From an uncultured virus (IMG/VR IMGVR_UViG_2775507075_000002) (taxonomy: Duplodnaviria > Heunggongvirae > Uroviricota > Caudoviricetes), in IMG/VR virus record IMGVR_UViG_2775507075_000002: a stretch of DNA of 20,000 nt. One strand, given 5' to 3'. The position numbers and the translations under genes are program-made. Positions 1-2,368 of the stretch are shown here, in pieces (position 1 is the stretch's first letter; each line of letters opens with the position of its first letter). The notes under the pieces are model-generated. The model saw nothing but the letters and a program-made list of their open reading frames with translations. It made no database searches and was not told the origin of the DNA.

Positions 1-16
1 ATAGTTACCGCCTCCG
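1..16 (-). promoter_or_regulatory. Ribosome-binding site and truncated start codon of the next late gene (probably holin)
   Basis: Minus strand reads GGAGG-CGGTAACT-AT at the edge. The position after Q/pR' is where lambdoid holins lie, but the gene itself is outside the window. Confidence 0.5.
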
Positions 17-116
17 ATGGAAGATCGGGAAGCTGTGTGTTTGAAAAGGGTCAGGCCCGTCAGGCTGGATTTAACAACGAAGCGTGTCGATGATGATTCC
101 TGCGGGACCTGATAAT

Positions 117-140
117 AAAAAAGCCATGCAAATGCATGGC
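117..140 (-). terminator. Intrinsic terminator in late leader
   Basis: Minus strand GCCATGC-ATTT-GCATGGC followed by T6. Confidence 0.75.
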
Positions 141-160
141 CTTGTGATTTGAATCCGTTA

Positions 161-189
161 TTTACAAAATGTATTCGAGACAGTATCTT
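161..189 (+). promoter_or_regulatory. Sigma70 promoter for small RNA A
   Basis: TTTACA (161-166), 17 bp spacer, TATCTT (184-189); a same-strand terminator begins about 55 bp downstream. Confidence 0.6.
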
Positions 190-194
190 TCGAC

Positions 195-273
195 TTCCGG
201 ACAAAAAACATATACCGGGACAAAATCTAAATGTAACTGCCTTGCCTGCATGAAACCATGCGGGCTTTTTTTT
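195..273 (+). ncRNA. Candidate ~80-nt small RNA (RNA A), antisense to the late transcript
   Basis: Promoter 161-189; 5' hairpin TTCCGG/CCGGGA (195-220) with a 14-nt loop; terminator GCCTGCATG-AAAC-CATGCGGGC-T8 (244-273). Confidence 0.6.
244..273 (+). terminator. Intrinsic terminator
   Basis: 9-bp stem with one G-U pair, followed by T8. Confidence 0.85.
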
Positions 274-281
274 GCCCAAAG

Positions 282-302
282 AAAAAGCCCACCGAAGTGG
301 GC
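282..302 (-). terminator. Intrinsic terminator, convergent with 244-273
   Basis: Minus strand GCCCAC-TTCG-GTGGGC-TTTTT. Confidence 0.85.
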
Positions 303-443
303 CTTACAGCTATCATCATTTTTTATTAGGTGTGGTGCCGGGTGCCTCCCGGTAAGTCGCCGCCAGTCCACAGACGACTCGCAATGCGCAAAAAAACATA
401 TCAGACTGGCAATGCCCCTCCGCATAGGGGGATTCACCACACC
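282..443 (-). ncRNA. Candidate structured RNA with pseudoknot (RNA B)
   Basis: Closing stem 329-337/435-443 (9 bp perfect); hairpins 415-430 and 338-352; stems 354-361/373-380 and 362-368/404-410 cross each other. G-U pairs form only on the minus strand. Has its own promoter and terminator. Confidence 0.7.
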
Positions 444-446
444 AGA

Positions 447-475
447 AATTTAACATTCAGTCTTTCTGGTTTCAA
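447..475 (-). promoter_or_regulatory. Sigma70 promoter for RNA B
   Basis: TTGAAA (475-470), 17 bp spacer, TAAATT (452-447) with extended TGn; predicted +1 falls within the 5' strand of the closing stem. Confidence 0.7.
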
Positions 476-602
476 TACTCTGCTTGTCTGAGGTATCGGC
501 TCACCATAACCGCCCAGCCTGATGTTATCAGCGTGTAGCGGCTTGTTTTTCTCTTTGATAAAATTGATTCGCAAATGATTAAAACATCAACTGGTGCATA
601 AT

Positions 603-1049
603 ATGAGTAAGTACTCAGACCTTTTACAGGTAATCAAGTCACGGGTTTGCCAAAATAACAACTTCCCCCAAACATTACTGGCAGACTCACACAGTTACAG
701 AACCAGGCAGGTTTGGTACCGAATAGGACAAATATTCACTCTTGAATGTATTCTCGATGAGTACAGGAAACATTTTTCATCGGATTATTATTATCTTGAT
801 AACGATAAGGCTCTTCATCACCTTATCTTCGAAATGACCAAGTGGAAACCTGAAGAGATTAGAAGACTCTCGCTAAACGACTGTCTCTTTATCATTGCCA
901 GTCAACTAAAGCCCAGTTATATGTCAGAAGATGCTGCCGCTGTCCTGGCGTCACTCAATCTGCCGACTGGCCACTATCCTGTTGAGGATTTTCCACAAGA
1001 GGACTGGGATCCCAGGGAAAACTCAGCATTCCTTGAAAGCTATCAGTAG
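603..1049 (+). CDS. Hypothetical prophage accessory (moron) protein, 148 aa
   Basis: AT-rich ORF against the late-operon direction, preceded by extended -10 TGaTAAAAT (556-564); start at 594 or 603. Confidence 0.75.
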   Translation: MSKYSDLLQVIKSRVCQNNNFPQTLLADSHSYRTRQVWYRIGQIFTLECILDEYRKHFSSDYYYLDNDKALHHLIFEMTKWKPEEIRRLSLNDCLFIIASQLKPSYMSEDAAAVLASLNLPTGHYPVEDFPQEDWDPRENSAFLESYQ

Positions 1050-1212
1050 CGACTCGCCCAATCTCCGCAGAGATCTGACTCAGCCGCTCCTCAAGAGCGG
1101 CTTTTTCTGCTATCAGACGGTTGAAGTGGGCAAGATAGATTTTCTGTTGCCCAAGCCAGTCTTCAAGCTGTTGAGTGGTCATGCCCGGGTTAAAAAAATA
1201 TGGTTGCTGCAT
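955..1212 (-). CDS. Hypothetical 85-aa protein with predicted coiled coil
   Basis: GGGGGAA RBS before ATG; heptad-like segment LIAEKAALEERLSQISAEI; directly downstream of the tRNA. Confidence 0.65.
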   Translation of the reverse strand: MQQPYFFNPGMTTQQLEDWLGQQKIYLAHFNRLIAEKAALEERLSQISAEIGRVATDSFQGMLSFPWDPSPLVENPQQDSGQSAD

Positions 1213-1279: not shown

Positions 1280-1355
1280 TGGTGCTGGTTGACGGAATCG
1301 AACAGCCGACATCCTGCTTACAAGGCAGGCGCTCTACCTTCTGAGCTAAACCAGC
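1280..1355 (-). tRNA. tRNA-Thr (anticodon UGU)
   Basis: 76 nt; acceptor stem GCTGGTT/AACCAGC + ACCA; anticodon arm CCTGC-CT-TGT-AA-GCAGG; T loop TTCGATT; one T-stem mismatch. Confidence 0.93.
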
Positions 1356-1441: not shown

Positions 1442-1469
1442 AAAAAGCCCCGGCATTTGCCGAGGCTTT
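1442..1469 (-). terminator. tR' terminator
   Basis: GCCTCGGC-AAAT-GCCGGGGC-TTTTT, about 40-65 nt downstream of the pR' start. Confidence 0.85.
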
Positions 1470-1500
1470 AAATTTTTTCTTCAACGGTGAACACACAATG

Positions 1501-1542
1501 CCCATCGTTAGAACAAATTAACACGAATTCGGGAAAAGTAAA
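1501..1542 (-). promoter_or_regulatory. Late promoter pR' with sigma-dependent pause element
   Basis: TTTACT-16-TAATTT (extended TG) followed by AACGATGGG, the same initial sequence as the lambda pR' transcript; lies directly after Q. Confidence 0.85.
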
Positions 1543-1546
1543 TATC

Positions 1547-2368
1547 TCACCGCGTTATTTGTTTGAGTTGCGCCTCTGCCCACGCTTCCTCTATATCGAA
1601 TTTAGTGATCAATACGTCGAAGAACGGTTTAACCGATTTCTTCCAGGTATCCAGAGTGATGGCGTCCGTTATCTGGCAAATGGCCCTATGCACAGCAGTG
1701 GAGAGGATTCGCTCATACCCGCGACCACCACAGCGTTTACAGTTACCCATCACAGGCACTCCCTGCTTCTCCGTCTCATCCTGGTTCACTACCTTCCCCC
1801 GACCGTGGCAGTCGTTACAGGCGGCGCTAACAGTCCCTTTTCCCTTGCACTTTTGGCAAAGCACCCGGACCTGCTCCCGGACCGACTTCACCTCCTCCCA
1901 GTATGATGGATAGATCCCCTTTGTAACTTTGACCCACTTCGGCGGTTTGCCGTCCGGATACGTTACTTTGTTGGTGAACGCCACTGCGTCGATGAATCCA
2001 GACCCATTGCAGCAGTCGCATGTTTTTTTACTGGAAGCACTGCGGGAGTAATCCTCAAAGGCGTACTCTGCGAGGATCCGTATAACCCGGGGTTTTACGC
2101 TTGGCGAGAGCTTTCGCAACGCAGCAACCTTATCGCATTTTGTCAGCGCGTACTCAGCCAATAGTCCGATAGCCCGATCCCGGTCATTGTTGCTTATGCC
2201 CATCTTGCCCAGGAAAGCGCTATACCCCATAGCGGCACGTTCCTGGGTCATGCCCATTGCTGCCATGATGTCGGTGCCGGTCAGTGAATCAGAGGCGGTA
2301 GCACGCGGAGAATCGCTAATCAGCGTGGATTTTGCGAAGTGGTATTTCACTGTGTTTTCAAGATTCAC
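1547..2368 (-). CDS. Q: Late antitermination protein Q (lambda Q family)
   Basis: N-terminal SDSPRATASDSLTGTDIMAAMGM closely matches lambda Q; CxxCxGxG zinc motifs; GTG start overlaps the upstream stop. Confidence 0.93.
   Translation of the reverse strand: MNLENTVKYHFAKSTLISDSPRATASDSLTGTDIMAAMGMTQERAAMGYSAFLGKMGISNNDRDRAIGLLAEYALTKCDKVAALRKLSPSVKPRVIRILAEYAFEDYSRSASSKKTCDCCNGSGFIDAVAFTNKVTYPDGKPPKWVKVTKGIYPSYWEEVKSVREQVRVLCQKCKGKGTVSAACNDCHGRGKVVNQDETEKQGVPVMGNCKRCGGRGYERILSTAVHRAICQITDAITLDTWKKSVKPFFDVLITKFDIEEAWAEAQLKQITR

What the first reader, a model, noticed from the sequence alone, without database searches (positions are those of the whole stretch)
161..475. Convergent two-RNA cassette: a hairpin-loop sRNA complementary to the linker of a pseudoknotted RNA
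Seen: two non-overlapping convergent units, each with a 17-bp-spaced sigma70 promoter and back-to-back terminators (A: +, ~195-273; B: -, ~443-282). The 14-nt loop of A's 5' hairpin contains AAAAAACATAT (203-213). The same 11-mer recurs on the + strand at 391-401, so B carries the exact complement AUAUGUUUUUU, in its longest predicted unpaired segment (381-403). Inference: a cognate RNA-RNA pair (sRNA plus sponge, or RNA effector plus antidote) between Q and the lysis genes, working independently of Q. A could also pair with the late mRNA leader there and tune lysis. Caveat: six of the 11 nt are an A run, so chance is possible.
Basis: partly seen in the sequence, partly recalled or inferred. 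Interest (0 to 1): 0.85.

Follow-up and report, generated by a model that had tools for sequence, protein, structure and literature searches.

The report
Prophage STnc100 with convergent small RNA
Between the late-gene activator Q and the lysis genes of a Klebsiella prophage lie a well-known phage small RNA (STnc100) and, facing it, an unannotated small RNA gene, but the short sequence match that suggested the two pair with each other is not kept in related phages.

Summary
The sequence features are real. Two convergent promoter-to-terminator units sit tail to tail, and AAAAAACATAT occurs at 203-213 and 391-401 and nowhere else in the 20 kb.

Unit B is not new. It is Rfam STnc100 (RF02076, 108 bits), a prophage sRNA family related to PasD. 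Public stranded RNA-seq shows it as abundant minus-strand RNA that drops about 17-fold at its terminator.

Unit A matches no Rfam family. It belongs to a set of five sequence types in Klebsiella and Salmonella (Fels-1) prophages. All keep a TTTAC[A/T]-16/17-TAnnnT promoter and a GCGGGC-U7 terminator tail to tail with the STnc100 terminator. Plus-strand RNA over A is only about 3 reads deep.

- Of 38 window-type A units, 7 lie next to a B whose linker has lost the match, or next to no B core.
- The other four A types share no more than 8 nt with their B.
- STnc100's linker is hypervariable.

Most likely A acts, if at all, as an antisense RNA to the late-operon leader. Interest is moderate.

The parts
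447..475 (-). Promoter of unit B (STnc100): -35 TTGAAA (475-470), 17-nt spacer, TG-extended -10 TAAATT (452-447)
   Evidence: Found by the scan. The -35 TTGAC-like and -10 hexamers are kept at the same distance from the GTGGTGAAT core in most of 35 distinct STnc100 copies, while the spacer varies. X15 coverage ends at about 440. X22 reads run through the promoter from upstream.
274..469 (-). Unit B = STnc100-family sRNA (Rfam coordinates). The transcript from its own promoter probably runs from about 441 to about 276.
   Evidence: RF02076: 108.1 bits against a gathering score of 47, E = 3.7e-23, full model. Fold -66.5 kcal/mol, z = -3.2. Depth is up to 577 on the strand expected for a minus-strand RNA and falls to 33 past the terminator.
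381..405 (-). Hypervariable linker/loop of STnc100. It carries AUAUGUUUUUU, the complement of 391-401.
   Evidence: Unpaired at 405-392 in the MFE fold. This region differs in length and sequence in nearly every one of 35 distinct STnc100 copies.
276..305 (-). Terminator of B: stem 305-284, then a U-tract
   Evidence: Minus-strand RNA depth drops from about 575 to 33 across it in X22, and cDNA fragment ends pile up at 307-310.
161..189 (+). Promoter of unit A: -35 TTTACA, 17-nt spacer, -10 TATCTT
   Evidence: TTTAC[A/T], a 16-17-nt spacer and TAnnnT are kept in all 5 sequence types of the unit although the flanks and spacers differ. Within the window type the spacer carries 4 substitutions while both hexamers stay intact.
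195..273 (+). Unit A: candidate ~79-nt RNA. 5' hairpin 195-220 (loop 201-214 with the 11-mer at 203-213), AU-rich linker, terminator 244-265 plus T8.
   Evidence: Fold -22 kcal/mol, z = -4.1. Terminator found. No Rfam family reaches its threshold. Plus-strand RNA is about 3 reads deep: in X22 it spans 41-220 with no step at 195, and in X15 it lies at about 201-243 only.
120..143 (-). Second minus-strand terminator, between unit A and the holin
   Evidence: Read-through minus-strand RNA falls from 16 to 2 here in X22, with 7 fragment ends at 155.
1..16 (-). Holin ribosome-binding site and first bases of the start codon. The gene runs off the left end of the window.
   Evidence: In phage ST974-OXA48phi18.2 the annotated holin CDS ends at locus 4903 of L001, which is window position 2. 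GGAGG can be read on the minus strand at 12-16.
1442..1542 (-). pR'-like late promoter and short terminated RNA directly after Q (context, not part of the cassette): TTTACT (1542-1537), 16-nt spacer, TG-TAATTT (1520-1515), AACGATGGG at 1509-1501, terminator hairpin 1466-1447 plus T5
   Evidence: Read. Hairpin confirmed by the fold. Block 1547-1501 is 85-89% identical to unannotated DNA of E. coli phages HK225, mEp237 and PHB10. In HK225 the match starts 21 nt after the Q-like gene, and an annotated rho-independent terminator begins 20 nt after the match ends. Weak isrJ-like hit: 21.6 bits against 37. The simple scan listed neither the promoter nor the terminator.

Best explanation
The interval between Q and the holin of this Klebsiella lambdoid prophage holds two independent small transcription units, set tail to tail inside the leader of the late operon.

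Unit B is an ordinary member of the known STnc100/PasD family of prophage sRNAs. It has its own conserved sigma-70 promoter and an efficient terminator. It is made in lysogens, and it is not the pR'-tR' transcript, which lies 1 kb upstream next to Q.

They are kept in at least five sequence types in Klebsiella and Salmonella (Fels-1) prophages and are always placed against the STnc100 terminator.

A is encoded antisense to the leader segment that lies between two minus-strand terminators. Its obligatory partner is therefore any late transcript that reads through B's terminator, not B itself. I infer that A, if functional, acts in cis. It would either pair with and destabilise read-through late RNA, or interfere with it by convergent transcription, helping keep the holin silent in lysogens.

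The 11-13-nt match between A's loop and B's linker is specific to one lineage and is not under detectable selection.

Shown: the identity and expression of B, the use of both minus-strand terminators, the architecture and conservation of A, and the loss of complementarity in relatives. Inferred: that A is transcribed from its own promoter, and any effect on late RNA or lysis.
For: Unit B:
- STnc100 at 108 bits.
- Its promoter hexamers are conserved across 35 distinct copies.
- In X22 the minus-strand depth is 575 over B, 33 after terminator 1 and 2 after terminator 2. X15 coverage ends at about 440.

pR' lies elsewhere.

Unit A family:
- Five types share TTTAC[A/T]-16/17-TAnnnT and a GCGGGC-U7 terminator. 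Four of the five fold with a hairpin at or next to the 5' end; the Fels-1 type does not.
- A promoter-to-terminator pattern of this form hit 15 of 401 Enterobacteriaceae genomes and 0 in the reversed control. Thirteen hits share the RyhB core, and all 7 that were tested score as RyhB in Rfam. The other 2 are A-family units, so the pattern picks real sRNA genes.
- Some plus-strand RNA ends before A's terminator in two runs.

The pairing is not conserved:
- 7 of 38 window-type A units lie beside a B without the match, or beside no B core.
- A-run lengths vary independently.
- The other A types share at most 8 nt with their B.
- Only 2 sequence types among the 35 distinct STnc100 copies aligned (window/phi8.2 and Fels-1) have the convergent terminator at all, so B does not need A.
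Against: - Plus-strand RNA over A is very weak. It is about 3 reads deep, 0.5% of B in X22 and about 8% of B in X15.
- In X22 that RNA starts at or before 41-60 and shows no step at A's predicted start. A's own promoter is therefore not demonstrated.
- Standard libraries under-sample ~80-nt RNAs, so this is inconclusive either way.
- The match is statistically unusual for this pair (6 of 2000 shuffles). It is 13 nt in the commonest variant, the highest value among 27 STnc100 linkers examined. A lineage-specific interaction therefore cannot be excluded.
- The 31 loci that keep the match are near-identical sequences, and the 7 that lost it are recombinants that might simply be non-functional combinations.
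- No experiment bears on the cis-antisense role.
Confidence: 0.55

Rival explanations
1. One reading: A and B are a cognate trans-acting pair (an sRNA and its sponge or antidote). They would pair through A's hairpin loop (ACAAAAAA(A)CAUAUA) and B's linker (AUAUGUUUUUU(U)G), at least in the Klebsiella window-type lineage.
For: - The exact 11-mer occurs only twice in 20 kb, both times here.
- A complementary run of 11 or more arose in 6 of 2000 shuffles of the pair.
- The match is 13 nt in 18 of 38 window-type loci, the largest value among 27 distinct STnc100 linkers.
- Both sites are predicted unpaired.
- Phage-encoded anti-sRNAs in this genome region are a known kind: AgvB and AsxR are cited in 10.64898/2026.05.13.724894 (passages read).
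Against: - There is no compensatory change anywhere.
- The same A lies beside diverged or unrelated linkers, or no B core, in 7 of 38 loci. A-run lengths drift independently.
- Four other A types lack any match longer than 8 nt with their B.
- Seven of the 11-13 nt are an A/U homopolymer.
- A hairpin loop of 14 nt cannot form a continuous 11-13-bp helix unless its stem opens (established RNA geometry; inference).
- A is at most 0.5-8% of B in the two informative runs, which is poor stoichiometry for a sponge.
Confidence: 0.12
2. Unit A is not a functional RNA gene. The region is only a terminator block that insulates the lysis cassette: two minus-strand terminators and one plus-strand terminator that stops stray antisense transcription coming from the holin side. 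The promoter-like hexamers would be incidental.
For: - The promoter match is only 9 of 12, and such sites are as common as in shuffles.
- In X22 the plus-strand RNA begins upstream of the supposed promoter and simply ends before the plus-strand terminator.
- Both minus-strand terminators are clearly used.
Against: - The -35 and -10 hexamers, with their 16-17-nt spacing, are kept in five otherwise dissimilar sequence types.
- They also survive 4 spacer substitutions within the window type. That is hard to explain without selection on a promoter.
- The 3 plus-strand reads in X15 lie only inside A's body, at about 201-243.
Confidence: 0.25
3. The repeated 11-13-mer is a DNA-level element: two direct copies of a protein-binding or recombination site 188 bp apart. 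It would not be an RNA-RNA pairing determinant.
For: The two copies are direct repeats on the same strand, and the flanks are unrelated.
Against: - No third copy exists in the window.
- One copy is lost in recombinants while the other stays unchanged.
- No candidate binding protein or known motif was identified.
- The sequence is low in complexity.
Confidence: 0.03

Closest known systems
STnc100 (Rfam RF02076), overlapping EcOnc27/sRNA103 of E. coli O157 and related to PasD1/PasD2 of EPEC
   Same: Unit B scores 108 bits over the full model. It shares the invariant GGUGAAUCCCCC...GGGGC and CCGGGAGGCACCCGG cores. It lies in a lambdoid prophage between a PF03589 Q gene and the holin/lysozyme genes, as described for PasD and STnc100 (10.64898/2026.05.13.724894, passages and section 15 read). 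It is expressed as a discrete RNA.
   Different: Nothing essential. Its hypervariable linker carries a U-run not seen in the other copies aligned. In Stx2 phages STnc100 lies just downstream of stx2B (PMC12370729 and PMC12711010, passages read); here it follows a tRNA-Thr gene and an opposite-strand ORF.
Phage-encoded anti-sRNAs / sRNA sponges (AgvB, AsxR) in the late region of EHEC prophages
   Same: The location is similar: the Q-to-lysis interval of lambdoid prophages. The idea of one small RNA titrating another through a short complementary stretch is also the same. That AgvB and AsxR are anti-sRNAs is recalled; the preprint passages read only list them as sRNAs found near Pas genes.
   Different: Those sponges target core-genome sRNAs, and their function rests on experiments. 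Here the proposed partner is the neighbouring phage RNA, and the complementarity is not conserved.
Phage cis-antisense RNAs (lambda OOP against cII, P22 sar against ant) - recalled, not tested here
   Same: Each is a short, terminated RNA made from its own constitutive promoter on the strand opposite a phage operon. It is therefore fully complementary to any transcript that crosses it.
   Different: A overlaps an untranslated leader about 190-270 nt upstream of the holin start, not a coding region or a ribosome-binding site. No effect on the target has been shown.
Short pR'-tR' transcripts of lambdoid phages (lambda 6S RNA, StxS, IsrJ)
   Same: They are constitutive, terminated small RNAs in the late leader that Q-modified polymerase reads through (StxS: abstract of PMC7547250 seen in a search listing).
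   Different: The unit of that kind in this window is a different one, at 1542-1442 directly after Q. B lies 1 kb further downstream and has its own promoter.

Membership tests
STnc100 (RF02076) | Covariance-model score at or above Rfam's gathering threshold over the full model | tested here: met
   108.1 bits against 47, model positions 1-206 of 206, E = 3.7e-23, minus strand 469-274
STnc100 (RF02076) | Conserved core motifs and closing helix shared with other members | tested here: met
   In the alignment of 35 distinct copies the two cores are nearly invariant. The closing helix GUGGUG/CACCAC varies on both sides, for example AUGGUG/CACCAU and GUGAUG/CAUCAC. This was read by eye; no formal covariation count was made.
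STnc100 (RF02076) | Expressed as a discrete small RNA on the predicted strand, ending at its terminator | tested here: met
   X22 depth is 575 over the body against 33 after the terminator, with about 95% of reads in one orientation. X15 shows the same orientation, with coverage from about 305 to 440.
STnc100 (RF02076) | Hfq association | not testable with these tools
   Reported for EcOnc27 and for PasD (PMC12711010 and PMC8550237, passages read). No data exist for this copy.
Cognate sRNA-sponge / anti-sRNA pair | Complementarity between the two RNAs maintained (co-varying) across homologues | tested here: not met
   Of 38 window-type A units, 31 keep 11 nt or more; these are near-identical sequences. 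Three keep 8 nt, 3 have unrelated linkers and 1 has no B core. No compensatory change was seen. Types T2-T5 share at most 8 nt with their B.
Cognate sRNA-sponge / anti-sRNA pair | Both RNAs are expressed in the same cells | tested here: inconclusive
   B is abundant. Plus-strand RNA over A is about 3 reads deep in each of two runs. Two other runs did not carry the locus: 1 and 0 reads laid.
Cognate sRNA-sponge / anti-sRNA pair | Physical A-B duplex and a regulatory consequence | not testable with these tools
   Needs RIL-seq, CLASH or EMSA with compensatory mutants.
Cis-encoded antisense RNA | Transcripts from both strands overlap the same DNA | tested here: inconclusive
   In X22, minus-strand read-through RNA (depth 16-33) and plus-strand RNA (depth about 3) both cover 161-240. 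The plus-strand RNA was not shown to start at A's promoter.
pR'-tR' short late transcript (lambda 6S / StxS / IsrJ type) | The promoter lies directly downstream of Q, with a conserved promoter-proximal element and a terminator within about 100 nt | tested here: not met
   Not met for B, whose promoter lies 1070 bp from the end of Q, beyond a tRNA gene and an opposite-strand ORF. Such a unit does exist at 1542-1442.

The most novel reading that the evidence does not exclude
Unit A represents a new family of prophage small RNAs that serves as an RNA safety catch on the lysis cassette. It would be a constitutive antisense RNA, boxed in between two late-leader terminators and always set against the STnc100 terminator, that neutralises late transcripts leaking past STnc100 in lysogens. 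In the Klebsiella lineage it would additionally talk to STnc100 through an 11-13-nt loop-linker contact, coupling the two RNAs.
Probability: 0.15. Interest if true: 0.7.

Novelty: new member of a known kind. Interest (0 to 1): 0.38.

Why it matters
STnc100/PasD RNAs are very common in enterobacterial prophages, including Shiga-toxin phages, and their function is still unknown. Three results here may be useful to those working on them:
- A subset carries a conserved convergent partner unit.
- The STnc100 linker is a hypervariable cassette on an invariant scaffold.
- STnc100 is distinct from the true pR' transcript.

If unit A does control read-through into the holin gene, it would be a new layer of lysis control in lambdoid phages. 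The specific claim that made the finding exciting, a cognate RNA-antidote pair, is not borne out.

Tried and rejected
- B as the pR'-tR' '6S-like' transcript, with a Q-binding element in its promoter spacer. I first inferred this from the swapped spacer in phage phi8.2. I rejected it for three reasons. phi8.2 has an IsrJ unit between its Q and STnc100. The window has a separate pR'-like unit right after Q. STnc100 often occurs in tandem copies.
- Covariation from close relatives. The four Klebsiella phages that carry A are 98.5% or more identical over it, so they are uninformative.
- Homology search for A in 401 Enterobacteriaceae genomes. All 26 matching genomes matched the B part or the terminators (query 159-356), and none matched A's body.
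- RNA.duplexfold energies of whole A against whole B. These were uninformative: -38 observed against -40.5 +/- 4.2 in shuffles.
- RNA runs X18 (1 read) and X20 (0 reads) did not carry the locus, so they are no test.
- Rfam with permissive thresholds over A gave only sub-threshold, terminator-driven hits.
- Coding potential. ORFs 149-253 (+), 169-453 (+) and 162-440 (-) run through terminators and have no Pfam match. The 31-aa frame 17-112 (+) is not kept in the homologous leader of L023 (read).
- The earlier-findings index had nothing for this sequence or for the combined search words.
- The Klebsiella RIL-seq paper PMC10907235 says nothing about this locus in the passages matching 'prophage' or 'sponge'.
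- Searches (preprint not held; term syntax) returned errors and were not pursued.

Full report
**Context**

The window is the late-regulatory region of a Klebsiella lambdoid prophage, read on the minus strand.
- Window 100-600 is 97-99.8% identical to Klebsiella phages ST974-OXA48phi18.2, ST846-OXA48phi9.2 and KPP5665-2, and 71% of it matches ST11-VIM1phi8.2.
- Going leftwards, the order is:
  - Q antiterminator, 2368-1547 (PF03589 plus a DnaJ-type zinc finger; phrog_127).
  - tRNA-Thr(UGU), 1355-1280.
  - An opposite-strand 151-aa ORF, 594-1049 (no Pfam match; phrog_5286 of unknown function).
  - The interval under study.
  - The holin, whose start codon straddles window position 1-2 according to the annotation of phi18.2.

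**The observation**

- The scan finds TTTACA-17-TATCTT at 161-189 (+) and TTGAAA-17-TAAATT at 475-447 (-). It also finds terminators at 244-265 (+) and 305-284 (-), plus a further minus-strand terminator at 143-120.
- Promoter-like sites are no more frequent than in shuffles (3 against 2.1 +/- 1.3), so on their own they prove nothing. Terminator-like sites are enriched (5 against 1.8 +/- 1.5).
- Unit A folds as a 6-bp hairpin with a 14-nt loop, a single-stranded stretch and the terminator (-22 kcal/mol, z = -4.1).
- AAAAAACATAT lies at 203-213 and 391-401 and nowhere else in 20 kb.
- A complementary run of 11 nt or more between A and B arose in 6 of 2000 dinucleotide shuffles.
- Two details are inexact. 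The unpaired stretch around the match in B's MFE fold is 405-392, and it is not B's longest unpaired segment. B's 5' end is discussed below.

**Unit B is known**

- It is a full-length member of Rfam STnc100 (RF02076; 108 bits against a gathering score of 47).
- STnc100 is a prophage sRNA family:
  - It overlaps the Hfq-bound EcOnc27/sRNA103 of E. coli O157 (PMC12711010, passages read).
  - It lies downstream of stx2B in Stx2 phages (PMC12370729, passages read).
  - It was recently argued to share ancestry with the Hfq-dependent PasD1/PasD2 sRNAs, which sit between a PF03589 Q gene and the holin/lysozyme genes (bioRxiv 10.64898/2026.05.13.724894, abstract, section 15 and passages read; PMC8550237, passages read).
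- In 401 sampled Enterobacteriaceae genomes, 26 matched the window's B part. Rfam scans of the fetched loci show that STnc100 often occurs in two to four tandem copies, three of them in Fels-1.
- I aligned 35 distinct copies with their upstream DNA. This shows:
  - a conserved TTGAC-type -35 and a TAnnnT -10 at a fixed distance from the invariant GUGGUGAAUCCCCC core;
  - a closing helix that changes on both sides;
  - a linker between the first hairpin and CCGGGAGGCACCCGG that is hypervariable in length and sequence.
- The window's AUAUGUUUUUUUG lies in that hypervariable linker.

**Expression**

One call laid four public raw-read RNA runs on window 1-600. Two did not carry the locus (1 and 0 reads). 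The other two were informative.

Run X22 is stranded and carries a phi8.2-like variant.
- Depth over 361-400 is 574-577 in the orientation expected for a minus-strand RNA.
- It falls to 33 at 281-300, just past terminator 305-284, then stays at 16-19 over 161-240 and falls to 2 left of terminator 143-120.
- B is therefore abundant, its terminator stops about 94% of transcripts, and the second terminator stops most of the rest before the holin.
- However, 199 reads continue about 30 nt or more upstream of position 456, through the predicted promoter. In that strain some transcription enters B from upstream.

Run X15 is a single-cell library.
- Its coverage of B ends at about 440 (13.9 at 421-440, 0.15 at 441-460). 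This fits the predicted start about 7 nt after the -10.

Plus-strand RNA over unit A is weak in both runs.
- In X22 it is about 3 reads deep from 41 to 220, drops to 0.1 at 221-240 and is zero from 241. It starts left of A's promoter, shows no step at 195 and stops just before A's terminator hairpin.
- In X15 about 3 reads lie only at about 201-243.
- So A's terminator is probably used, but A's own promoter is not demonstrated. An ~80-nt RNA is poorly captured by such libraries.

**Unit A is a conserved unit, not a one-off**

- By blastn, A's body occurs only in the four near-identical Klebsiella phages, and no Rfam family fits it.
Sixty of these carry one of five sequence types: T1 (window type) 38, T2 15, T3 (Fels-1) 4, T4 1 and T5 2.
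- All five types keep TTTAC[A/T], a 16-17-nt spacer, TAnnnT and a GCGGGC-U7 terminator. Four fold with a hairpin at or next to the 5' end followed by an AU-rich stretch; the Fels-1 type does not.
- Within T1 the promoter spacer carries four substitutions while both hexamers stay intact.
- As a specificity check I ran a promoter-to-terminator pattern of this form over 401 genomes.
  - It hit 15 genomes, and 0 in the reversed control.
  - Thirteen hits share the RyhB core sequence, and all 7 that I tested score as RyhB in Rfam.
  - The other two are A-family units.
  - The architecture is therefore that of real sRNA genes.
- I conclude that A is probably a genuine small transcription unit (about 0.6), carried sporadically by prophages.

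**The cognate-pair test**

They do not. The 38 T1 units break down as follows:

| Neighbouring B | Loci |
|---|---|
| Linker gives a match of 11-13 nt (near-identical sequences, not independent) | 31 |
| Linker changed (...AAAAAAATAACT... twice, ...AAAAAAAAATAT... once), A unchanged | 3 |
| Linker entirely unrelated, no shared 7-mer in the loop | 3 |
| No STnc100 core within 300 nt | 1 |

- The homopolymer lengths combine freely. Counts as A-run in unit A / A-run in B's linker: A6/A7 10 loci, A7/A7 18, A8/A7 2, A7/A6 1.
- Types T2-T5 share at most 7-8 nt with their neighbouring STnc100, and not in the 5' hairpin loop.
- Among 27 distinct STnc100 linkers compared with 700 nt of flank on each side, only the window type reaches 13 nt. 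Runs of 10-11 nt occur elsewhere by chance.
- Of the 35 distinct STnc100 copies aligned, only two sequence types have a convergent terminator at all, so B does not depend on A.
It does not exclude a young, lineage-specific interaction, which I put at about 0.12.

**What A more likely does**

- A is encoded antisense to the piece of late leader that lies between two functional minus-strand terminators.
- B and A do not overlap: B ends at about 276 and A at about 273.
- Any transcript that escapes B's terminator, about 6% in X22, and every Q-modified late transcript, is fully complementary to A over about 79 nt. That is far more than the 11-nt trans match.
- The most economical mechanism is therefore cis-antisense action on read-through late RNA, or convergent transcriptional interference, reinforcing silence of the holin in lysogens.
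- This is inference from geometry and conservation only. I give it about 0.3-0.35 within an overall 0.55 for the picture 'real cassette, pairing not the function'.
- The main rival, at 0.25, is that the block is only a set of terminators and the promoter is incidental.

**Where pR' is**

- Directly after Q's stop codon (1549-1547) I read TTTACT-16-TGTTAATTT, then AACGATGGG, and about 40 nt further a strong hairpin plus U5.
- Block 1547-1501 is 85-89% identical to unannotated DNA of E. coli phages HK225, mEp237 and PHB10.
- In HK225 the match starts 21 nt after the Q-like gene, and an annotated rho-independent terminator begins 20 nt after the match ends.
- Rfam gives a sub-threshold isrJ-like hit here (21.6 bits against 37).
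- AACGAT resembles the sigma-dependent pause element of lambda pR'. This is recalled, not tested.
- This unit, not B, is the likely Q-dependent late promoter with its short terminated RNA. B and A are separate modules embedded in the late leader.

**Novelty and verdict**

- B is already known.
- A is a new candidate member of a known kind: a prophage small RNA or cis-antisense unit.
- I did not find it described. Rfam 15 has no family for it. Searches for 'STnc100', for PasA/PasD/RIL-seq, for Klebsiella RIL-seq and prophage sRNA, and for late promoter / Q / small RNA / holin / antisense turned up nothing on such a unit.
- PasA/PasC, which sit next to the holin in E. coli, could be counterparts.
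- The headline claim of a cognate RNA pair is not supported. Interest is moderate (0.38).

Noticed in passing
window 1442-1547 (-): A pR'-like promoter lies directly after the Q stop codon: TTTACT-16-TG-TAATTT, then an AACGATGGG element, then a ~65-nt RNA ending in a strong terminator. The promoter-proximal block is 85-89% identical in E. coli phages HK225, mEp237 and PHB10. There is a sub-threshold isrJ-like Rfam hit. This is probably the real Q-dependent late promoter and its short terminated transcript.
   Followed up: partly
window 1280-1355 (-): A tRNA-Thr (anticodon UGU) lies just downstream of the pR'-like unit. The placement is the same as for the tRNA genes of Stx phages (recalled).
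   Followed up: no
window 594-1049 (+), terminator 1082-1102 (+): A 151-aa ORF lies on the strand opposite the late operon and has its own terminator. It has no Pfam match and falls in phrog_5286 (unknown function). Opposite-strand ORFs sit in the same position in Fels-1 (STM0904) and HK225 (gp66). It looks like a moron inserted between pR' and STnc100.
   Followed up: partly
window 120-143 (-): A second minus-strand terminator lies about 120 nt upstream of the holin start. It is used in vivo: read-through RNA falls from 16 to 2 in run X22. The holin is therefore shielded by two terminators downstream of STnc100's promoter.
   Followed up: partly
L003, L029, L036 (Fels-1), L010, L016, L011, L018, L030: STnc100 occurs as two to four tandem same-strand copies in many prophages, each with a different linker. 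Some copies lack a terminator (for example L035, L007, L008 and L020). Why promoter-RNA-terminator modules pile up in the late leader is unexplained.
   Followed up: no
window 381-405 (-) and the alignment: The STnc100 linker is hypervariable on an otherwise nearly invariant scaffold. The loops of the two invariant hairpins (GUGCGG and AGGCA) are themselves invariant. This suggests a specificity cassette plus a conserved tertiary or protein contact.
   Followed up: no
window 17-135 versus L023 1273-1375: The leader between the second terminator and the holin ribosome-binding site is 78% conserved in an unrelated genome, although it holds no conserved reading frame. It may be a structured leader element.
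   Followed up: no
L002 4450-4526 (-): In phage ST11-VIM1phi8.2 a different Q-like gene is followed by an IsrJ unit (63 bits) and then by the same STnc100 + A cassette. The homology with the window breaks inside the spacer of STnc100's promoter, while both hexamers are retained.
   Followed up: partly
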